Of a DNA stretch of 64,000 bases, positions 833 to 7,564 are shown piece after piece. The notes beneath the pieces were generated by a model, which did no database searches, was not told where the DNA came from, and was given only the letters and a program-made list of their open reading frames with translations. Each line of letters starts with the position of its first letter. The stretch's first letter is position 1. This stretch comes from Escherichia coli (GTDB lineage Bacteria > Pseudomonadota > Gammaproteobacteria > Enterobacterales > Enterobacteriaceae): NCBI RefSeq assembly GCF_041248615.1, contig NZ_CP158426.1, one strand, 5' to 3'. The translations under genes were made by a program, and so were the position numbers.

Positions 833-1984
833 TTATTCAACTTCATCGTAATAAATCTCCCATTGATCATTCATACCAACAACCTGCTTTTCCTCGTAAA
901 TATACTGAACCTTGTCAATTTCTATTACTTTTGATGAACCATCTATAAATTCCATACATGAAGGATTAAAAACAACCAAGTTCTTACCTTTACCAACTGT
1001 ACTTGAAAATTGTATACCATCATACCCCTCTTTCCTTATACAATCAGATATTAGTTGGGACACACTATATCTTCCTTCTAAGGAAGGTGGAGTTGCAGTA
1101 TTAAAAATACCTGCCATCTTTGCATATGGTATCATGGATAATAAACTTTCATCACTCTCAATAAACTCTAAAAAATTAGGATAAGAAAAATCGAATACCT
1201 TTAATGCTTTTGCAACTCTAAATTTACCAATTGAAACAACATCTGTTGGATGAGGTCGAACTTCCGCAATTGCAGTATAACTATCTGTAGCACAATAAAG
1301 GTAAGAAACGCCTGCTCTATTAGCCCTGCCAGCAGTAGCCTTTAGTGGTGGCACGGCTCCTATTTCCTTATCTTTAAATGGAACAAATATTTTCTTTCCT
1401 TCACGGCTAAATCCCCTAAGTGCTGTTTTATAGCCAGCAGTCCCAACTCTGGCTCTATATACCACAGAACTTCCTTCTATTATCTTCGAAAAAATATCAC
1501 CATAACCTTTTATAATACTTCTTAGCTCACCTTCAAAATCATGGTAATTCTTTTCTGAAAGCTGTTTTGACAAAGAATCTAAAAATGGCTGATGTGCATT
1601 TCTGATAGACATATATGGCGTATTATATAGACCATCAGATCCATAGCCTGCATAAATATTTATTCCCTCACTATCAAATGCCATATCCCACAATTCGCTA
1701 TCGAGTTCCCCAAAAGATTCATCATGCTCCTGTATATCCTTGGTGAAAATAAAATCATCTTCCAATAGAAAACTCGGGTAATACTCCCCTCCAAAATGAG
1801 TATTGTAATCGACTTCATCATAATGATATCTCAGAATAGCTTTCAACAAATTACGTACTTCTGAAGAATCAGTATCTAAACAAACAGTATCTGCACAACA
1901 AAAAGCACAAATACCTCGTATATTTTGCGAAAAAATTAGTTTTTTTATATTTGATTCAACAATGTGACTTTCGCAGATATACAT
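833..1984 (-). CDS. RES-domain protein with Cys/His-rich N-terminal domain (putative NAD+-targeting toxin / abortive-infection effector); AT-rich cargo gene
   Basis: C-terminal half carries the RES signature: VYRAR, AGRANRAGVSYLYCATDSYTAIAEVRPH (R..N..G...LY.A.......E) and DGIQFSSTVGKGKNLVVFNP (conserved Ser, N.vvF). N-terminus has C-x20-C-x2-CC-x4-C. AGGAG sits 6 nt upstream of the second ATG (1984). Markedly AT-rich versus flanking phage genes. Confidence 0.6.
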   Translation of the reverse strand: MYICESHIVESNIKKLIFSQNIRGICAFCCADTVCLDTDSSEVRNLLKAILRYHYDEVDYNTHFGGEYYPSFLLEDDFIFTKDIQEHDESFGELDSELWDMAFDSEGINIYAGYGSDGLYNTPYMSIRNAHQPFLDSLSKQLSEKNYHDFEGELRSIIKGYGDIFSKIIEGSSVVYRARVGTAGYKTALRGFSREGKKIFVPFKDKEIGAVPPLKATAGRANRAGVSYLYCATDSYTAIAEVRPHPTDVVSIGKFRVAKALKVFDFSYPNFLEFIESDESLLSMIPYAKMAGIFNTATPPSLEGRYSVSQLISDCIRKEGYDGIQFSSTVGKGKNLVVFNPSCMEFIDGSSKVIEIDKVQYIYEEKQVVGMNDQWEIYYDEVE

Positions 1985-2044
1985 CATAATCTCCTTGAAT
2001 TTTACCTTACATGCTCATTATTGCCACTTTAGCTTGCGCGCGCA

Positions 2045-2063
2045 ATCGTATCCCCGCCACGCC
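2045..2063 (-). other. cos-like cohesive-end sequence of P2/186 type (bottom strand GGCGTGGCGGGGATACGAT)
   Basis: Bottom strand matches the recalled 19-nt 186 cohesive end GGCGTGGCGGGGAAAGCAT at 15/19 positions (first 13 contiguous). Lies in a GC-rich non-coding block with a perfect 12-bp palindrome TTGCGCGCGCAA at 2034-2045. Located between the early-region end and the portal gene, where cos is expected. Confidence 0.5.
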
Positions 2064-2349
2064 TGCCCGCTTTATGTAGCGGTTTTCATGCAGGTGCATG
2101 ATCTACGCAAAATCCCACCAGTTCTGGCGGGCCTTAGCAAAAACGATCCGCAAACGATCATGCGATCTCATGCGGCATAGTCATGCACTTACGGGGGAAC
2201 TGAAATCCAGTAACCGAATGATCGCTTGAAAAACGAAACATACGTACTTACAAAGCACAAAGCCTGCTTTGAGCGAAGCGGACATTAATAATGTTGCTGA
2301 CCATCCCTAGTACTTCTCATAATATATCCGTATGTTAATCAACAAAATA

Positions 2350-4242
2350 TTAATTTGTCCCATCACTAAAGAATTTGATTGCGTCAGTTAGTACATAGTC
2401 AATGAAAAATTTTACGTGAAAGACCTGAAAAACGCTATTTTCTGAGTTTTTAATGAAATCTACAGCTATATCTTTTAGGTTGATCAACCAGTTATATTCT
2501 TCAATCAGTCTAGTTCTGGCATCCGCATCAGAATAACGACTCCGTAAGCTAAATGCCAGTTTCCTCATGATAACTGGATCAAGTTTCCTATAGCTTTCAA
2601 TGAAAACATCAGCAGGAACTAAGTGTAAAAAAGGTACATCATGAAGATTTAACTGTCTATTATTAGAATGACTCAATTCAGATAACAACGATAATTTTCC
2701 CCTTTGTAACTCATCTCTGAACTGCAATGCAAATTCCGAAATTGAATCATCAAACCGTTTCTTCCTTTCTATTTTAATATGTTCAATAATGAGCTTAAAG
2801 TCATCACTATCCCTGTCAAGAAAACCTAAACCACGCCATGCCCTTAATTCGTTATAATGTGTTTGCGCATATTCCTTATGTACATCTTCAGCTCTAAGTC
2901 TATTATAATAATTATTTATATTCTGTTTTGTCTCATTTATGAGATCATGAACATCATCTGTTGTTAGACCTTCTTTCGCCATTTCCAGCAAAATACTCGC
3001 TGTCATCAGAAGTTCACCTAAGGAAGTGATCTTACCTGAAAACAGGTTATCCTTAGCAATAGCGTACTGCTCATAAAGCATAGTTTCATTTAGTTCTCTA
3101 TAGTTCCACAAATACTCCCATGCTTGGGAATCGCTGCTTCTAAAAAATCGCGTAATATCCAACTGAGCAAGAAGATCACCCGTTACCTTTCCATCACAGA
3201 TTAGTTCTCTCCAAGACGCACCATCCAGTAACTTCTCGGTTAATACAGGAGACGAATATTTCTCGACAATCATGTCATACTTACTTTTGACACGTTCTTT
3301 ACCCAAAAACATACCATAATTAACATTGCCGATTGAATTGAAATCCTCGTAACTAAGATTCCCTCCCCGGTACTCCATCGAAAAAATTAACAATTGATGA
3401 AAAAACACCCTTATAAATTCATCGTTACTTACATATTTATCTCCCAAAAGGGAAATAATTCGTTGTACATCGAGAAAGAACTGCCTCAAGTGTCTTAGAT
3501 TATTATAATTCGCTGACACATAGAGGTCCTCTATTGTCTGCATATCTTCTTTAAATATATTAGCAACATGCAAACTACTAATTACGTTCAAAAAAATCTT
3601 ACAAGCACTATGTAAATCTGACGTTACTTCAAATGTTTTACCTACTAGCTTTTCTTTTGTTCTCATGTATTCATTGCGAGATTTCTCATCATCATTATTT
3701 ATTCGCTTTTCTCTATTGATTATTTCATCTTCATTGGCAACCAAGATCGCTTTGTATCCGTTTACCTCTACAAAGTGATTTATATATCCAAATAAGATTG
3801 GTAAATCTACACCAGCTCTCTCGACATCATCAAAGACCAGCACAAAACCATCTGGTTTTCTAGTAAAGTCGCTAAGATTAATGGTGGGAACATTGCTATT
3901 GACATCTACGTCAGATTTATTATCGCCATTAAGATCGATCTTGAAAGTAGCCTTAAGCGTATTTTTTAGTACATTTGCACCAAAGATAAGGGCTTTGTTT
4001 GATAGGACAGGATGCAGTTGACGATAGAACTCATCTTCAATCTGCTCAATAGAGTTGACGCCATACAAGCTCACTTTTAGAAATTTGAACTCTGAATGTT
4101 TCTGCCTATATTCTTCAAGAACTCGTTCAATGAACCAAGTTTTACCTGATCCCCAAGCACCTTTAAGCATAATGGCGTATTGAGGTTCAGTTTTAAGGCT
4201 AAGGTAATATTCTAGATAGTCTTTGATGTACGTATTGTGCAT
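2350..4242 (-). CDS. KAP-family P-loop NTPase (candidate anti-phage defence cargo in the tin/old-equivalent hotspot)
   Basis: Walker A GAWGSGKT in the KAP-type GxWGxGK[ST] context and Walker B-like hhhhDDVER (VLVFDDVER); about 630 aa. AT-rich. Start taken at the MHNTY Met (4242); the track ORF extends to 4293 with no RBS. Confidence 0.65.
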   Translation of the reverse strand: MHNTYIKDYLEYYLSLKTEPQYAIMLKGAWGSGKTWFIERVLEEYRQKHSEFKFLKVSLYGVNSIEQIEDEFYRQLHPVLSNKALIFGANVLKNTLKATFKIDLNGDNKSDVDVNSNVPTINLSDFTRKPDGFVLVFDDVERAGVDLPILFGYINHFVEVNGYKAILVANEDEIINREKRINNDDEKSRNEYMRTKEKLVGKTFEVTSDLHSACKIFLNVISSLHVANIFKEDMQTIEDLYVSANYNNLRHLRQFFLDVQRIISLLGDKYVSNDEFIRVFFHQLLIFSMEYRGGNLSYEDFNSIGNVNYGMFLGKERVKSKYDMIVEKYSSPVLTEKLLDGASWRELICDGKVTGDLLAQLDITRFFRSSDSQAWEYLWNYRELNETMLYEQYAIAKDNLFSGKITSLGELLMTASILLEMAKEGLTTDDVHDLINETKQNINNYYNRLRAEDVHKEYAQTHYNELRAWRGLGFLDRDSDDFKLIIEHIKIERKKRFDDSISEFALQFRDELQRGKLSLLSELSHSNNRQLNLHDVPFLHLVPADVFIESYRKLDPVIMRKLAFSLRSRYSDADARTRLIEEYNWLINLKDIAVDFIKNSENSVFQVFHVKFFIDYVLTDAIKFFSDGTN

Positions 4243-4563
4243 TTTTAGTCCATTTTGATAAAATACATAAACATAGATGGTAAGTAGAGCCAAAGGCCAA
4301 CTATGGAAAACTCAATCGGTAGTGTACATTGTAAGGTTATTATTGGTAAATATTATAGGAATACCCATAATCTAACAAAATTCAGATTATCCGTTGCAAA
4401 TTAGTCTGCCATTCGCTAATTGACGAAAGATAGCACAAGAAACGTTCGCTTCTGGCACAAAGCGGACGATCACTTATAAAAATGACCGCCCACCTTACGC
4501 CTTATTTCACTCGTTGCCCAAACTAGCCCCCATTAGAATGAATCCTCCTAGGGGCAACGTTTC

Positions 4564-4797
4564 TTAATGCAGCCAGCTGTCATCTTCCCACACTTTCTGC
4601 ATAATTTTCATTACTTGTTTTCTTTCTTCGTCCAGTTGCAGTCCGGTTAGTTCCACACCGTTAGAGCTACCTTTGCGGATACGAATTACCGTTTTGGAAT
4701 ACAGGGGGCGCAGATTGCGGTAAAGCTCGGATTCAAGGGCGTCCAGGGTAGACTGGCTAATCTTCTGCTCTTTATCGATCATTATTTCAATGCGCAT
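4564..4797 (-). CDS. DinI-family protein (resembles E. coli DinI and the DinI-like domain of phage 186 Tum)
   Basis: MRIEIMIDKEQ...LDALESEL...IRIRKG...LTGLQLDEERKQVMKIMQKVWEDDSW aligns by eye with DinI (MRIEV.IAK...IDAL..EL......V.VR...LSV.G...E...I.EILQETWE.ADDW). GAGGTG RBS 7 nt upstream of ATG at 4797; track ORF 4564-4869 is an upstream extension. Confidence 0.6.
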   Translation of the reverse strand: MRIEIMIDKEQKISQSTLDALESELYRNLRPLYSKTVIRIRKGSSNGVELTGLQLDEERKQVMKIMQKVWEDDSWLH

Positions 4798-4807
4798 AAA
4801 AGTCACC

Positions 4808-4996
4808 TCAGCTGATGACATCCATTGAGCGGTTGTATTCGTGGCTTCTGATTTTTGCCATGAGTTCATCAGTCAATTCAGAAACCCACTGCAGAGCCAG
4901 CCCCTTCTCTTCATCACTACACTCACTAGCCGCTACAAGCTTAAGAAAAAAATCAATGCGCTGGAGCTTCAAAGACTCCAAAAAATAGTCCTGCAT
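4808..4996 (-). CDS. Small phage protein of unknown function, first gene of a two-gene unit with the DinI-like gene
   Basis: 62-codon ORF with AGGAGG RBS 5 nt upstream of ATG; its stop lies 10 nt before the DinI-like start. Confidence 0.45.
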   Translation of the reverse strand: MQDYFLESLKLQRIDFFLKLVAASECSDEEKGLALQWVSELTDELMAKIRSHEYNRSMDVIS

Positions 4997-5039
4997 CTTT
5001 CCTCCTATGACACCACACGCAATTCTGTATGTATAACCA

Positions 5040-5055
5040 CTGTTTATATTTACAG
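5040..5055 (-). promoter_or_regulatory. LexA-box-like motif (bottom strand CTGT-N8-ACAA) upstream of the small-protein/DinI-like pair
   Basis: Top strand TTGTTTATATTTACAG; on the coding strand this is CTGTAAATATAAACAA, one mismatch from the CTGT-N8-ACAG SOS box, about 45 bp upstream of the start codon. Confidence 0.3.
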
Positions 5056-5149
5056 TATATAATAATCCTACTGATGTAAAACGTTTTTTTACGCTTATCA
5101 GCCTGATATGCCTGGTATTATTAAGAGCACGAATTGTTAACCCGCGTAA

Positions 5150-7564
5150 TTAATACAGGTTCCGCCACTGATCATCTTCCTGCAAACGTTGGTTCCGATA
5201 GAAGATACGCAGGCCTGCTCCTGACGGAATACTGCCGCCACGAAGGAGTAAATAGACCTCTTTCTCGCTGCCATCAAATCCTCTGGACTTCAGTTCATAG
5301 ACAAGCTGCTGTCGCTGATGGTCTGTAATTCGCTGTTTGTAGTCTTTACGCCGTTTCGGTTTCACCAGGCGTAACCTTGCAGCCAGTTCCCGGCGCTCTT
5401 TTTTGCTCATACTGTGCAGGTATTCGTGCAACTCCTTGTCATCCATGCGGGTGATATCCGTTCTGGTATCTCCATCAGCTGATTTGTCTTTCCCTTGTTG
5501 GTACAAATTTTCAGCAAGGGGACAGTTATTGCCACGAGTCCAAGGGGCGCAAGCGCCCTGGTCGGCTGCCGCCTCCTGAACGTCAACGGCCTTACGAACC
5601 ATTTTCCACTTCACTGCATGAGTGCAGATCTTGCCCTCTGCAATGGGTGACCAGATGCCATAAATACGAATGCCGTGATCGCCATAGGCGGTCGGCTCTT
5701 CGTTAATTTCATAAGCAGTTCTGATGAGGTGATATTTGCGGGGAACCAGTACGCCGCCCTGCTTCATGATGTAAGTGGCAAAACAACCAGCATCAGCAGC
5801 AGCCAGGATTGCATCAAGGCGCGGGTTATCCAGTACCGGCGCACCTGCTTTTTTGTCCCCCTGTTGCCTTGCCGCCTGACCAGCCAGCAATCGCAGTTCA
5901 CGGTAAGCCTGACGCCCCGGAATGCCAAAGAAGCGGAATTGCTGAACACGATGCAGAGACGCCCAGGCATTAACGTATTCAGCGTTATCACGCAGGGATT
6001 TACCCGTTTCCTTGCTGATCTCGCCAGCCAGACCACGCCCGTCAATGTTCTTACTGATGTATTTCGCGATGTAGCTTGTTGGCGTACCTTTGCGCGGGTT
6101 TATCAGCTCAGACTTAAAGCGTGGTCCCGTGTTATTCCCCAGCTCCTCGCGGTCTTCACGAATGGCAAACTTACGCAATAAAGCAGTAATGGCGCGGCGA
6201 TCTTTTTTGCGCATAAAACACAACAGGTGCCAGTGAACTGTACCGTCATGATGCGGCTCAGCCACCCGCACGCCATACCACCGCAATCCGGCTTTGTGCA
6301 TCGCCTTACGAAATGCAGCAAACATGCCGACCAGATAATCACTGCTTTGTTTTACCGTCGCATTTGTCCAGGTTGGGTTGGGCCTGCCGTTATTTAGCGT
6401 GGAATGGAAACGTGACGGACAGGTGATGGTGTAGAAAACGGCGCAGTCACCGCGCATTTCCGCGATAAGCTCCAGACCTTTAACACAGGCCATCATCTCA
6501 TTGCGGCGATGCGCAGGGTTGCTGCTGCTGGCGTTTACCACATCCTCCATGTCCAGCGTGTCGCCGTCTTCGTTCACCAGTTCATGAGAACGGAAAAACT
6601 CCAGCGACTTACGGCGCTGCTCACGTTTATGCATCACGGCTTCATAGCTGACATAGGGGGATGCTTTTTTGCTAACCAGGCAGACAGCGCGCAACTGCTC
6701 TTCCCGCCATTCGCAACGCATCTTCCATAATTTCCGATACCACCAGTCGGCGCACAACATACGCGCCAGCGAACCCGGAATGAGTTCATAGGGCACGGGT
6801 TTACGGCGGTTTCTTTTCCGGCGGAGTTGCTCAAACGCAGGTGGGATGACATCCAGACGCAGGGTTTCCGCCGCCACCCTTTCCCATGTCTTGCGGATTT
6901 CTTCTGGCTTAACGTCATCGGTGGCATACAAATCGCCACAAGCTGCATCAAGGCACATGCTCATATGCGCAGCAACAAGGGTGGACAGGCGTTTCACCTG
7001 ATCCTGACTCATTTCAGGCAGAATCAGCAGGCCGTCCAGCCCTTCATGGCTTGCCATAAAGCGAAAAGAAGTGGATAGCTGACTGTCGCGTACATGCTCC
7101 AGCCGTTCCAGACATGGCTTAATCGTCTCACGCAAATAGCGGGAATAAGCCTTTGGCCTGCCAAGGCTACTGAAGTATTCAATACGTTGCATCAGCGGCT
7201 TGCTGATATGGGAGGGCTGGGCGCTGACGTCTGCCAGAATGACCATGTCCGGGTTAAAACGCTGCTGCTCATGCGCCAACTTTGCCCGGCTAATGAGCTT
7301 ATCCTGCTCCATTTCGCGCTGGACAGGATCACGGGATTCATTAAAGAAATAACGCTCCCAGACCTGATCACTCAGTGCCTCGCGGCGCAGTTGTTCCTGC
7401 TCGTTATCGGCAGCGTACAGAGTGATCAGGTTTGAAAGCGCAGAAACCGGCGCAACTTCCGCCGGGTCCAGATAAGGGTTAATAGCCTTTTTCGGGCTGT
7501 TCCATGAGAATGCTGCGGCGGCCTCGTTAAAGCCGCTGCAGTTGTTCATATCAGCATGGCTCAT
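5150..7564 (-). CDS. Phage replication initiation endonuclease (P2 gpA / 186 A family, rolling-circle)
   Basis: 804-aa ORF; size, early-operon position and C-terminal region resemble P2-family A proteins. Start overlaps the Dam stop by 4 nt. Confidence 0.8.

What the first reader, a model, noticed from the sequence alone, without database searches (positions are those of the whole stretch)
4294..4563. Non-coding region upstream of the KAP NTPase gene with nested palindromes
The 270 bp between the DinI-like stop and the KAP gene contains inverted repeats (GTTGCCC...CCTAGGGGCAAC around 4527-4560; CAAATTAG/CTAATTG around 4390-4415) and an AT-rich tract. It is the likely promoter and possibly an operator or sensor RNA for the cargo gene. 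A loose resemblance between ...GGCACAAAGCGGAC... here and ...AGCACAAAGCC...GAAGCGGAC at 2250-2285 might mark conserved cargo-insertion boundaries.
Basis: seen in the sequence. Interest (0 to 1): 0.3.

Follow-up and report, generated by a model that had tools for sequence, protein, structure and literature searches.

The report
Phage hotspot-edge RNA hairpins plus cargo leader
The 320-bp gap is two things joined: a worn copy of a structured non-coding element found at the edge of the defence-gene hotspot in many P2/186-like phages and apparently undescribed, and the AT-rich leader that arrived with the KAP defence gene.

Summary
The window is an E. coli P2/186-like prophage, and all genes here lie on the minus strand. 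The "intergenic region" has two parts.

**Phage backbone (4448-4563).** About 280 other E. coli genomes keep this part next to unrelated cargo, some of it convergently oriented. It is therefore not a cargo-specific operator. Its minus-strand RNA folds very stably (z = -8), while the plus strand does not (z = -1.8).

Positions 4491-4572 are a diverged copy (40 bits, E 1e-9) of an element I found across Peduoviridae, including 186, Wphi and P2-type phages. That element is a strongly covarying hairpin just after a stop codon, followed by the invariant sequence GGTTGAACAACGAG-N4/5-GCGAGGCGTTAG. The invariant part is the ribosome-binding site of the first hotspot gene. It has no Rfam match and no annotation in the records viewed. 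A 22-bp, G-U-rich hairpin (4454-4501) seals the degraded ribosome-binding site here.

**Cargo-specific leader (4243-4447).** This part is AT-rich and unstructured, with a perfect TATAAT at 4352-4357. Its first 10 nt pair with the DinI-like stop-codon region, with two compensatory changes among relatives.

Both of its "boundary" motifs do sit at the cargo boundaries. The layout mirrors the phage 186 SOS operon. Function is inferred, not shown.

The parts
4491..4572 (-). Diverged copy of a conserved Peduoviridae 'hotspot-edge' element: a hairpin just after a stop codon, followed by a ribosome-binding tail.
   Evidence: Covariance model R1 was built from 94 unique canonical copies. It scores this site 40.3 bits, E 1.3e-9, and it is the only hit in the 64-kb window. 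Loci L030, L112 and L172 are intermediates that link it to the canonical form.
4526..4555 (-). Hairpin H1: GCCCCUA-GG-AGGA-UUCA-UUCU-AA-UGGGGGC. It occupies the position of the canonical covarying hairpin.
   Evidence: RNA folds. It is 97.5% paired across 36 E. coli-type variants but nearly invariant, so covariation says little here. Alone, in a 64-nt context, it gives -18.7 kcal/mol, z = -2.0.
4512..4559 (.). It is an alternative outer stem specific to this lineage. GGGCAACGAG is the diverged form of the canonical GAACAACGAG.
   Evidence: (52 of 300 shuffles).
4494..4525 (-). Degraded tail CUAGUUUGGGCAACGAG-UGAA-AUAAGGCGUAAG. It matches the canonical GGUUGAACAACGAG at 11 of 14 positions and GCGAGGCGUUAG at 8 of 12. 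This is a vestigial ribosome-binding site.
   Evidence: Comparison with alignment A4 and with L030/L112. In canonical copies an ORF starts 2-3 nt after GTTAG.
4454..4501 (-). Hairpin H2: 22 bp with 8 G-U pairs and a UAUA loop. It buries the vestigial SD (AAGG), the GUG start and a 7-codon remnant ORF (VGGHFYK*).
   Evidence: -32.1 kcal/mol, z = -6.85, 71% of the ensemble. It is 90% paired in 36 variants, with 4 pairs changed on both sides. The apical stem compensates between the window and L030 (GGUCAU/GUGAUC against GGCCAU/AUGGUC). One lineage has a 7-nt deletion and another a 7-nt duplication.
4447..4464 (-). Small hairpin U, CGCUUUGUGCCAGAAGCG, followed by AACGUUUCUU. It is weakly terminator-like and mutually exclusive with H2.
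   Evidence: Terminator scan. BLAST alignments to genomes with other cargo start at window 4435-4456. Alignment A1.
4437..4446 (-). First 10 nt of the KAP cassette (AACGUUUCUU). This is the 3' arm of a long-range helix with 4556-4565.
   Evidence: Perfect 10-nt repeat. It occurs only in KAP-type cassettes (p <= 0.01), while other cargos show at most 6 nt. It is 100% paired in 9 haplotypes with 2 compensatory double changes.
4556..4565 (-). 5' arm of the long-range helix (AAGAAACGUU). It overlaps the last two bases of the DinI-like stop codon (4564-4566).
4243..4436 (-). KAP-cassette-specific leader. It is AT-rich, and the likely sigma-70 -10 box TATAAT lies at 4357..4352 with a weak -35. That would give a 5' UTR of about 100 nt.
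   Evidence: It is present only with the KAP gene, in 44 E. coli genomes. The -10 reads TATAAT or TATAAA in all haplotypes. Diversity downstream of the -10 is 0.016 against 0.049 at KAP third codon positions, partly biased by how the loci were selected. It is not structured.
4388..4432 (.). Imperfect inverted repeat around CAAATTAG/CTAATTG, at chance level.
   Evidence: 17 nt at 71% complementarity, with a perfect core of 6 nt. The left arm is AATTAA in most haplotypes.
2350..4242 (-). Cargo gene: a KAP-family P-loop NTPase, which is the PADLOC candidate defence system PDC-S49.
   Evidence: PADLOC E 3.7e-156. Pfam KAP_NTPase E 5e-20.
2249..2283 (-). Downstream cargo boundary: hairpin D (GUCCGCUUCGCUCAAAGCAGGC) plus a U-rich tail. 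It is degenerate in this window.
   Evidence: The backbone resumes here in 13 loci carrying different cargo. In relative L077 it is a 13-bp terminator-like site on both strands. The window copy gives z = -0.2.
2045..2131 (-). A terminator-like hairpin next to cos (2131..2114), and the cos core GGCGTGGCGGGGATACGAT (2063..2045).
   Evidence: The resemblance to the P2/186 cohesive ends is from my own knowledge.
5040..5055 (.). LexA box CTGT-N8-ACAG upstream of orf62 and the DinI-like gene. It is the promoter region of the SOS operon whose 3' end is the region under study.
   Evidence: It is the only match in the 64-kb window, and sequence context fits. It is the same arrangement as p95/LexA/tum in the phage 186 record.

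Best explanation
The gap is a junction between phage backbone and a swapped-in defence cassette.

**Backbone half (4448-4566).** This is the 3' untranslated end of a LexA-controlled two-gene operon (orf62 plus a DinI/Tum-like gene), organised like the SOS operon of phage 186. It carries a worn copy of a conserved Peduoviridae RNA element.

In the ancestral form, a long covarying hairpin sits just after the upstream stop codon. It is followed by an invariant, unstructured ribosome-binding leader, GGUUGAACAACGAG-N4/5-GCGAGGCGUUAG. That leader places the first hotspot gene 2-3 nt downstream, so the gene is plugged into the upstream transcript. The gene is usually an 85-aa phrog_2100 protein.

In this E. 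coli lineage the downstream gene is gone and the leader has decayed: GAGG has become AAGG, and only a 7-codon ORF remains. A stable 22-bp G-U-rich hairpin (H2) locks the dead start site away.

I infer that the structured block acts in the sense RNA. It would protect the 3' end of the operon's message or provide a processing point, and it would insulate the cargo from upstream ribosomes. Because no convincing intrinsic terminator lies between the DinI-like gene and the KAP gene, SOS or early transcripts probably read through into the cargo.

**Cargo half (4243-4447).** This arrived with the KAP/PDC-S49 gene. It probably supplies the gene's own promoter for expression in the lysogen (TATAAT at 4352-4357) and a 5' UTR of about 100 nt.

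The cassette's first 10 nt pair with the stop-codon region. In read-through RNA this would close the whole backbone block into one compact domain.

**Shown:** the homology, the covariation of the canonical hairpin, the strand asymmetry, the boundaries, and the position of the ribosome-binding site.

**Inferred:** transcription, read-through, stabilisation or processing, and promoter use.
For: **Identity and layout**
- The window matches E. coli NRZ14408 at 100% and is a P2-like prophage.
- A LexA box precedes orf62 and the DinI-like gene.
- The 186 record shows p95/LexA, then tum, t95a, orf97, t95b and cos.

**Backbone versus cargo**
- 326 E. coli records match the region. 44 hold all of it, and the rest hold only about 4448-4563.
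- That part is kept next to SIR2, DarTG, a second KAP gene, GNAT and other cargo, including convergent genes.
- GC content switches at about 4400-4450 and about 2250-2300.

**RNA structure**
- z = -8.0 on the minus strand against -1.8 on the plus strand.
- H2 alone gives z = -6.85.

**The conserved family**
- It is present after DinI-like genes in 11 of 12 full-length loci from other genera that I examined. Those loci were picked by protein, not by the motif.
- It occurs in at least 120 IMG/VR contigs, and in 186, Wphi, a P2-type genome and PSP3.
- Hairpin covariation: 94.9% paired, 12 of 15 pairs with double changes, 271 double-change cells against 74 +/- 12 in shuffles (0 of 500).
- 129 G-U cells against 10 A-C cells, which favours the sense strand.
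- The window copy scores 40.3 bits.

**The tail is a ribosome-binding site**
- An ORF starts 2-3 nt after GTTAG in 35 of the 39 contexts (out of 96) that have an ORF starting within 12 nt. 31 of these are phrog_2100-like and 4 are UmuD-like.

**Cargo half and long-range helix**
-.

**No known family**
- No Rfam family matches.
Against: - No transcript, termination or processing data are available, so every functional step is inferred.
- In E. coli-type phages the module evolves at roughly the synonymous rate. Diversity is 0.074 for the H1 region and 0.17 for H2, against 0.084 at DinI third codon positions. This shows no purifying selection on its sequence.
- H2 carries a 7-nt deletion in one KAP lineage and is half replaced in GNAT-type phages.
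- Covariation within the E. coli-type set is weak: 9 double-change cells, reached by 10 of 500 shuffles.
- In many contexts the conserved tail stays intact although no gene follows it. A pure ribosome-binding role does not explain that.
- The -35 of the proposed KAP promoter is poor, and promoter-like sites are not enriched.
- The IMG/VR copies were selected with the invariant tail as the search pattern. Their tail conservation is therefore circular; only the protein-selected set counts for that point.
Confidence: 0.6

Rival explanations
1. One reading: the whole 270 bp is the promoter plus an operator or sensor RNA dedicated to the KAP gene, with the palindromes as regulator-binding sites or a riboswitch-like leader.
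For: - The cargo-specific half has a perfect TATAAT and is linked to the KAP gene.
- The leader downstream of the -10 is more conserved than KAP synonymous sites.
- A KAP-specific long-range helix with two compensatory changes exists.
Against: - The palindrome-rich half is backbone shared with unrelated and convergent cargo.
- The cited palindromes are at chance level.
- The KAP leader RNA is unstructured (z = +0.25 and -0.35).
- No Rfam match.
- No regulator gene sits in the cassette.
Confidence: 0.1
2. The backbone hairpins act as a partial transcription terminator or insulator, equivalent to t95a of phage 186. They would limit how much SOS or early transcription enters the cargo.
For: - 186 has an annotated partial terminator (t95a) right after tum, followed by an exclusion gene and a final terminator t95b.
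- H1 has a GC-rich stem (GCCCC/GGGGC) followed by UAGUUUGG, which loosely resembles t95a (ACCCCAUG/CAUGGGGU followed by UGUUUUG).
- The scan flags CGCUUUGUGCCAGAAGCG followed by AACGUUUCUU.
- Terminator-like sites are enriched in this region: 6 against 1.7 expected.
Against: - Neither H1 nor the canonical hairpin is followed by a U-tract; the canonical 3' flank is GGUUGAAC.
- Hairpin U has only 6 bp and a poor U-run, and it competes with the much more stable H2.
- In 186 the conserved element and t95a are separate features.
Confidence: 0.2
3. In this window the backbone block is a functionless relic: a decaying ribosome-binding site plus leftover gene fragments. It persists only because it lies between a conserved gene and a recombination breakpoint, and the 10-nt repeat is an insertion scar.
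For: - Diversity is near the neutral level.
- The tail has decayed and the remnant ORF carries an in-frame stop (VGGHFYK*, against a 14-17-aa ORF in L008 and L112).
- H2 has indels in some lineages.
- The literature describes small remnant sequences in these hotspots as products of intense recombination (bioRxiv 10.64898/2026.02.27.708500).
Against: - A fold at z = -8 with strict strand asymmetry is not expected of decaying sequence.
- H2 keeps its pairing through compensatory changes between distant variants.
- The 10-bp helix shows two double changes and no single ones.
Confidence: 0.25
4. The element is a DNA-level (single-strand hairpin) recombination site that captures or swaps cargo, loosely like an integron attC site.
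For: - It has a variable-sequence hairpin with invariant AAC...GTT closing pairs and conserved flanks.
- The variable DNA begins right after the conserved tail in many phages.
- GTTGAAC fits the attC R' consensus GTTRRRY (read directly from the sequence).
- Short GC-rich hairpins sit at both cargo edges.
- The title of Nilsson et al. 2004 proposes site-specific recombination for this region. The paper could not be read here.
Against: - There is no R''/R' pairing beyond AAC/GTT, and the 5' flank is purine-rich.
- The cargo edge lies about 27 nt after GTT, not at it.
- Breakpoints are scattered (4435-4456 and 4486) rather than at one fixed position.
- In 186 the cargo lies upstream of the element.
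- No dedicated recombinase gene is adjacent.
- The similarity between the two edge hairpins is not above chance.
- The tail is clearly a ribosome-binding site.
Confidence: 0.05

Closest known systems
SOS operon of coliphage 186 (p95/LexA, tum, t95a, orf97, t95b, cos), as annotated in NC_001317
   Same: The order of parts is the same: a LexA-boxed promoter, a DinI/Tum-like gene, a structured non-coding stretch right after its stop codon, an exclusion or defence gene, a terminator-like hairpin, then cos. 186 also carries the conserved hairpin-plus-tail element.
   Different: - In 186 the sequence right after tum is a textbook intrinsic terminator (t95a). The conserved element lies after orf97, just before t95b.
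- In this window the element follows the DinI-like gene directly, no U-tract terminator is present, and the cargo lies downstream of the element.
- Tum is one protein in 186. Here there are two ORFs, orf62 and a DinI-like gene.
P2 tin/old ('TO') defence hotspot between gpA and gpQ next to cos (Rousset et al. 2022, PMC9122126; Nilsson et al. 2004)
   Same: The locus and behaviour are the same. Low-GC cargo with anti-phage function is swapped between otherwise near-identical phages.
   Different: - The papers I could read describe genes, not the non-coding edge. They do not mention 'intergenic', 'terminator' or hairpins at the boundary.
- cos splits the gpA-to-gpQ interval into two slots. The KAP gene lies on the gpA side and the RES-domain gene on the portal side.
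Intercistronic mRNA hairpins of phage operons (T7 early RNase III sites, lambda sib retroregulation; from my own knowledge)
   Same: These are long, imperfect, strand-specific RNA hairpins between or after cistrons of a phage operon. A helix of about 20 bp is the size RNase III needs.
   Different: No processing has been shown here. No sequence similarity was tested or expected. The canonical element couples a hairpin to an invariant ribosome-binding leader, which those sites lack.
Phage 'morons': cargo with its own promoter and terminator (Juhala et al. 2000, cited in 10.1101/2024.10.15.618418)
   Same: The cassette is AT-rich, with a putative promoter of its own upstream and a terminator-like hairpin downstream, inserted between backbone genes.
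   Different: The cassette's first 10 nt are complementary to backbone sequence 109 nt upstream and covary with it. The moron model does not include this.
Integron attC sites
   Same: Both are hairpin-forming sites with variable stems, an AAC/GTT base and conserved flanks at the edge of swappable cassettes.
   Different: The defining features are not met. There is no RYYYAAC/GTTRRRY pairing, the junction is not at GTT, and no integron integrase is present. G-U pairs and the ribosome-binding tail point to RNA.

Membership tests
Peduoviridae hotspot-edge element (defined here; model R1 from alignment A4) | A significant match to the covariance model built from 94 unique canonical copies | tested here: met
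   Window 4491-4572(-) scores 40.3 bits, E 1.3e-9, full-length, and is the only hit in 64 kb. Canonical copies score 57-87 bits.
Peduoviridae hotspot-edge element (defined here; model R1 from alignment A4) | A hairpin starting 2-15 nt after the stop codon of the upstream gene, on the sense strand | tested here: met
   The DinI-like stop codon is at 4566-4564. The element's hairpin base (GAAACGUUGCC, with AAC at 4560-4558) starts 3 nt after the stop, and the paired stem is at 4555-4526.
Peduoviridae hotspot-edge element (defined here; model R1 from alignment A4) | The invariant tail GGUUGAACAACGAG-N4/5-GCGAGGCGUUAG | tested here: not met
   The window has GUUUGGGCAACGAG-UGAA-AUAAGGCGUAAG (11 of 14 and 8 of 12 positions). 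It is a diverged derivative, linked through L030 (GGUUGAACAAUGAG-UGAA-ACGAGGUGUUAG) and L112.
Peduoviridae hotspot-edge element (defined here; model R1 from alignment A4) | The start codon of a real gene 2-3 nt after the tail | tested here: not met
   Only a 7-codon GUG ORF (VGGHFYK*) follows. Canonical copies are followed by phrog_2100 or UmuD-like genes in 35 of 96 contexts.
186-type SOS operon | A LexA box overlapping the promoter upstream of a Tum/DinI-like gene | tested here: met
   CTGT-N8-ACAG at 5040-5055 is the single match in the window. Pfam DinI E 5.8e-22. 186 annotation for comparison. LexA binding itself was not tested.
186-type SOS operon | A partial intrinsic terminator (t95a type: GC stem plus U-tract) directly after the Tum/DinI gene | tested here: not met
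   The scan finds only a 6-bp hairpin with the tail AACGUUUCUU at 4464-4447, which competes with H2. H1 lacks a U-tract.
186-type SOS operon | An exclusion or defence gene, then a terminator, before cos | tested here: met
   - KAP/PDC-S49 gene.
- Hairpin D is degenerate in the window and a 13-bp terminator-like site in L077.
- A terminator-like site next to cos at 2131-2114, and cos at 2063-2045.
Sigma-70 promoter of the cargo gene | -35 and -10 hexamers at 16-18 nt spacing on the gene's strand, and a mapped transcript start | tested here: inconclusive
   There is a perfect TATAAT at 4357..4352, but the best -35 matches 2-3 of 6 positions. The scan lists no minus-strand site here, and site counts are not above shuffles. 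The transcript start cannot be tested with these tools.
Intrinsic (Rho-independent) terminator | A GC-rich hairpin immediately followed by a U-rich tract | tested here: inconclusive
   One weak candidate at 4464-4447 (6 pairs, 3 of them GC). The canonical hairpins are followed by GGUUGAAC.
Rfam RNA families (release 15) | A match at or near a family's gathering score | tested here: not met
   Nothing overlaps 4243-4572 in the window at E <= 1. Nothing overlaps the canonical element in 186, Escherichia, Enterobacter and Pantoea loci.
Integron attC recombination site | Paired R''/R' cores (RYYYAAC/GTTRRRY), the cassette junction at G|TT, and an adjacent IntI integrase | tested here: not met
   Only AAC/GTT pair. 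The 5' flank is purine-rich, the variable DNA starts about 27 nt after GTT, and no integrase lies nearby.
P2-type gpA-to-cos defence hotspot | Variable low-GC cargo between the replication gene block and cos, in otherwise conserved phages | tested here: met
   Rousset et al. 2022.

The most novel reading that the evidence does not exclude
The hairpin plus invariant 30-nt tail is a previously undescribed, Peduoviridae-wide cis-acting RNA with a function of its own at the left edge of the defence hotspot. For example, it could be a universal 'expression adaptor' or a protein-recognised operator. Such an element would plug whatever gene lands first in the hotspot into the SOS or early transcript. 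Cassettes such as KAP would have evolved pairing to it (the covarying 10-bp helix) to control how much read-through expression they receive on prophage induction.
Probability: 0.2. Interest if true: 0.7.

Novelty: new member of a known kind. Interest (0 to 1): 0.45.

Why it matters
P2-like phages are one of the best-studied reservoirs of anti-phage systems, but work so far has catalogued genes and not the DNA or RNA that frames them.

- **A landmark for cargo boundaries.** A conserved, covarying element at the hotspot edge marks cargo boundaries more sharply than flanking genes do. The covariance model finds it in 186-, P2- and Wphi-type phages.
- **A link between induction and defence.** The layout suggests that hotspot genes can be wired to the LexA-controlled or early transcript. 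That would tie defence-gene expression to prophage induction.
- **A concrete experiment.** The KAP-specific long-range helix can be disrupted and then restored.

For this particular window the practical message is more modest. The palindromes are mostly backbone relics, not a KAP operator. The KAP promoter should be sought in 4243-4447.

Tried and rejected
- **Rfam scans.** The window (1-10 kb) and five loci with canonical elements gave no relevant family.
- **Phage-database BLAST of the gap alone.** No match. This module type is absent from deposited phages, and only the canonical form is present there.
- **Small peptide in H1.** AGGAGG plus AUG gives MGASLGNE*. Rejected, because the start is lost in L085 and the frame is shifted or shortened in L004, L034 and L009.
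- **Coding potential of the conserved tail.** Rejected. The N4/N5 spacer shifts the frame, and both hairpin arms covary.
- **H2 or the downstream flank as remnants of the phrog_2100 gene.** tblastn found nothing better than E = 0.4.
- **Direct-repeat relation between the upstream and downstream boundary hairpins.** Both carry GTCCGCTT...GCGGAC, but local alignment scores are within the shuffled range.
- **Long-range closing helix as a general feature of all cargos.** Rejected. It occurs only in KAP-type cassettes.
- **Structured or sensor RNA in the KAP 5' UTR.** Rejected (z = +0.25 and -0.35).
- **Promoter within the conserved tail (TTGAAC-N17/18-...).** Rejected by inspection. The -10 is poor, and the start codon follows immediately.
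- **boxA/nut-like, IHF, sigma-E and dif/Xer resemblances.** Considered by eye and dropped as too weak.
- **Older literature.** Nilsson et al. 2004 and Odegrip et al. 2006 are not held. Searches for t95a/orf97 found nothing relevant.
Full report
**Context**

The first 5.2 kb of the window is 100% identical to the chromosome of E. coli NRZ14408 and belongs to a P2-like prophage. All relevant genes are on the minus strand. In the direction of transcription they are:
- the replication endonuclease gpA (5150-7564);
- a LexA box, CTGT-N8-ACAG, at 5040-5055, the only one in the 64 kb;
- orf62 (4808-4996, phrog_698);
- a DinI-like gene (4564-4797; Pfam DinI E 6e-22);
- the gap under study (4243-4563);
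- a KAP-family P-loop NTPase (2350-4242), which matches the PADLOC candidate defence system PDC-S49 (E 4e-156);
- a 360-bp stretch containing the cos core GGCGTGGCGGGGATACGAT (2063-2045);
- a RES-domain gene (833-1987), then the portal gene.

This is the known gpA-to-gpQ defence hotspot of P2-like phages (Rousset et al. 2022).

**Checking the observation**

Taken one at a time they are unremarkable:
- The 8-nt repeat CGTTGCCC/GGGCAACG is equalled in 52 of 300 dinucleotide shuffles.
- CAAATTAG/CTAATTG has a perfect core of only 6 nt, and most relatives lose a base of it.

What is significant is the fold of the sense (minus-strand) RNA. For 4430-4570 it is -63.9 kcal/mol, against -36.3 +/- 3.4 for shuffles (z = -8.0). 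The opposite strand gives only -30.1 kcal/mol (z = -1.8).

**The gap is two different things**

BLAST of the gap against 5,426 complete E. coli genomes finds 326 records. Forty-four hold all of it, always together with the KAP gene. The rest hold only about 4448-4563.

I fetched loci with other cargo. They carried an SIR2 gene with an ATPase gene (convergent with the operon), DarT/macro/AIPR genes, a different KAP gene, a convergent GNAT gene, an unnamed 111-aa gene (as in E. coli B REL606) and other hypothetical genes. All keep the same roughly 116 bp after the DinI-like stop codon and diverge completely after it. Breakpoints fall at 4435-4456, and at 4486 in the GNAT type.

GC content drops from 45-47% to 30-37% at the same place, and rises again at about 2250-2300.

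So 4448-4563 is phage backbone, and 4243-4447 came in with the KAP cassette. A palindrome in the backbone half cannot be an operator dedicated to the KAP gene.

**What the backbone half is**

I took loci chosen only by their DinI-like protein, from Citrobacter, Buttiauxella, Enterobacter, Erwinia, Kluyvera, Raoultella, Pantoea, Tatumella and Mixta. Of the 12 full-length loci examined, 11 show the same layout immediately after the stop codon:
- a long hairpin whose stem sequence differs from genus to genus;
- then a nearly invariant GGTTGAACAACGAG, 4-5 variable bases, and GCGAGGCGTTAG.

Searching IMG/VR with that tail returned at least 120 contigs. The element is also present in 186, Wphi, a P2-type genome, PSP3, pro147 and Yersinia and Erwinia phages.

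An alignment of 94 unique copies gives a 15-pair hairpin closed by invariant AAC...GUU pairs:
- 12 pairs show compensatory double changes, and 94.9% of cells are paired.
- There are 271 double-change cells against 74 +/- 12 in shuffles (0 of 500).
- Sliding the 3' partners gives at most 48% of cells paired.

G-U cells outnumber A-C cells 129 to 10. The pairing is therefore selected on the sense strand, meaning RNA or, less likely, single-stranded DNA.

No Rfam family matches it, and the records I viewed carry no annotation at the element itself, only one overlapping gene call in a few Yersinia and Escherichia phage records.

A covariance model built from this alignment scores the window at 4491-4572(-) with 40.3 bits, E 1.3e-9. 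This is the only hit in the window. Loci L030, L112 and L172 are sequence intermediates. The window therefore carries a diverged copy, with the tail reading GUUUGGGCAACGAG-UGAA-AUAAGGCGUAAG.

**What the conserved tail does**

In 39 of 96 unique contexts an ORF of at least 40 codons starts within 12 nt of GTTAG, and in 35 of them at +2 or +3. Thirty-one of these are an 85-aa protein of unknown function (phrog_2100, E 3e-41) and 4 are UmuD-like. GAGG sits 8-9 nt before the AUG, so the tail is a ribosome-binding leader. The variable DNA of the hotspot begins directly after it.

The element always begins 2-15 nt after a stop codon, whatever the upstream gene is: DinI/Tum, orf97 of 186, or an unannotated ORF in Wphi.

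'Empty' hotspots exist in phages vB_EcoM-813R9 and 500465-1 and in Klebsiella Kp4845-2. There the element is followed directly by the cos-proximal region.

My reading is that this is an intercistronic adaptor: a hairpin plus a ready-made translation start for the first gene of the hotspot. Two things are left unexplained. The tail stays intact in many contexts where no gene follows it, and GAACAACGAG is invariant for no reason I can give.

**State of the element in this window**

- The downstream gene is gone.
- The SD has decayed from GAGG to AAGG.
- The start codon opens a 7-codon ORF (VGGHFYK*). The same frame is 14-17 codons long in L008 and L112.
- H2 buries the SD, the start and the ORF.

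H2 is specific to a sub-lineage. It keeps its pairing through compensatory changes between distant variants. However, one KAP lineage has a 7-nt deletion in it, another has a 7-nt duplication, and GNAT-type phages have half of it replaced.

Within E. coli-type phages, nucleotide diversity is 0.074 for the H1 region and 0.17 for H2. DinI third codon positions give 0.084 and first and second positions 0.022. There is thus no sign of purifying selection on primary sequence. The copy is probably vestigial as a translation signal, while its secondary structure is retained.

**Comparison with phage 186**

The 186 record annotates the following order:
- p95 (SOS-dependent, with a LexA site);
- tum (DinI-like C-terminus);
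- t95a ('partial termination of p95 transcript'), 22 nt after the tum stop;
- orf97 ('expression from plasmid blocks 186 infection');
- t95b;
- cos.

The window has the same order of parts. The difference is that t95a is a textbook terminator (ACCCCAUG/CAUGGGGU followed by UGUUUUG). In the window nothing between the DinI-like gene and the KAP gene has a proper U-tract. The only candidate is CGCUUUGUGCCAGAAGCG followed by AACGUUUCUU at 4464-4447, and it competes with H2.

I therefore infer, but cannot show, that SOS or early transcripts read through the structured block into the KAP gene. They would end at the downstream hairpin or at the terminator-like site next to cos at 2131-2114.

**The cargo half**

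Positions 4243-4447 are AT-rich. All haplotypes carry TATAAT or TATAAA at 4357-4352, with a weak -35. The roughly 100 nt between it and the ATG are more conserved than KAP synonymous sites (0.016 against 0.049). That figure is biased downward, because some loci were retrieved with a 30-nt pattern taken from this stretch.

The leader RNA is no more structured than shuffles. The promoter scan gives no excess of sites. A dedicated promoter is expected on biological grounds, because the upstream operon is LexA-boxed and cargo genes of this hotspot are active from native promoters. It is not demonstrated.

**A real link between cargo and backbone**

The cassette's first 10 nt (AACGUUUCUU, 4446-4437) are perfectly complementary to AAGAAACGUU (4565-4556), which overlaps the DinI-like stop codon. 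In the predicted fold this helix closes H1, the tail and H2 into one three-way domain.

The complementarity exists only in KAP-type cassettes (p <= 0.01). Other cargo types reach at most 6 nt, which is chance level.

Among 9 distinct KAP-type haplotypes all 90 cells pair. Two pairs show double changes (C-G to U-A in L025, U-A to C-G in L034), and there are no single changes. Only 6 of 500 shuffles do as well.

This is suggestive of selection on pairing in a read-through RNA. With two events, an insertion scar later tidied by templated correction cannot be excluded.

**The boundary idea**

GGCACAAAGCGGAC is the shared arm of H2 and hairpin U at the upstream breakpoint. Positions 2250-2285 are where the backbone resumes in 13 loci with different cargo.

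That downstream edge is a short GC-rich hairpin with a U-rich tail. It is a 13-bp terminator-like site on both strands in relative L077, and is degenerate in the window.

Both edges carry GTCCGCTT...GCGGAC-type stems in relatives. Alignment scores between the two flanks are nevertheless within the shuffled range. I therefore treat the resemblance as unproven.

An attC-like recombination site was considered, and its defining features are not met.

**Limits**

- There are no expression data.
- The IMG/VR set was selected with the invariant tail, so only the protein-selected set speaks to tail conservation.
- The older P2/186 literature (Nilsson 2004, Odegrip 2006, Brumby 1996) could not be read, so a prior description of these sequences cannot be excluded.
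- The rest of the window beyond about 9 kb was not examined.

**Verdict**

The promoter/operator reading is only partly right.

The region is a backbone/cargo junction. Its structured half is a worn member of a widespread, strongly covarying Peduoviridae non-coding element, which is unannotated in the records I checked and absent from the papers I could read.

The window's copy is of modest interest. The family and the KAP-specific helix are worth a targeted experiment.

Noticed in passing
window 4564-5060: A perfect LexA box (5040-5055) lies upstream of orf62 (phrog_698) and a DinI-like gene, like the 186 p95/tum SOS operon. The two ORFs together are about the length of 186 Tum, which suggests a split or two-part Tum.
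   Followed up: partly
window 833-2350; L002 (REL606): cos (2045-2063) divides the gpA-to-portal interval into two separate variable slots. The RES-domain gene (833-1987) sits in the cos-to-portal slot. Only 2 of the 44 KAP-carrying genomes share it. In E. coli B REL606 the retron St85-family RT and effector occupy that same slot.
   Followed up: partly
L020, downstream boundary (about 250-170 nt before cos): A tandem (CCGCTT)n expansion of the 5' arm of the downstream boundary hairpin. This looks like replication slippage at the cargo edge.
   Followed up: no
window 4515-4547 (minus strand): A strong SD-like AGGAGG and an AUG open an 8-codon ORF (MGASLGNE*) inside hairpin H1. The start codon or the frame is lost in several relatives, so it is probably not a conserved peptide.
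   Followed up: yes
L113, L168, L216, L226: A UmuD-like gene (MGFPSPAQDYVE...) starts at exactly the same distance from the conserved GCGAGGCGTTAG tail as the usual phrog_2100 gene. The gene has been replaced precisely at the start codon.
   Followed up: partly
L095, L098, L101, L105 and many IMG/VR loci: phrog_2100 is an ~85-aa protein of unknown function with the motif (Y/F)Q(I/V)VYRG...WVFFQR. It is the commonest occupant directly after the element, and may be the ancestral third gene of the SOS operon.
   Followed up: partly
L083/L084 and L078/L085-L087, equivalent to window ~4480-4500: A 7-nt tandem duplication (TAAGGCG) and a 7-nt deletion (GGTGGGC) occur in the 5' arm of H2 in different KAP-type lineages.
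   Followed up: partly
L231 (Wphi) 3346-3497: An apparently unannotated ORF ends (...PPQRRR*) just before the conserved element in phage Wphi. The same C-terminus appears in many IMG/VR contigs.
   Followed up: no
   Followed up: no
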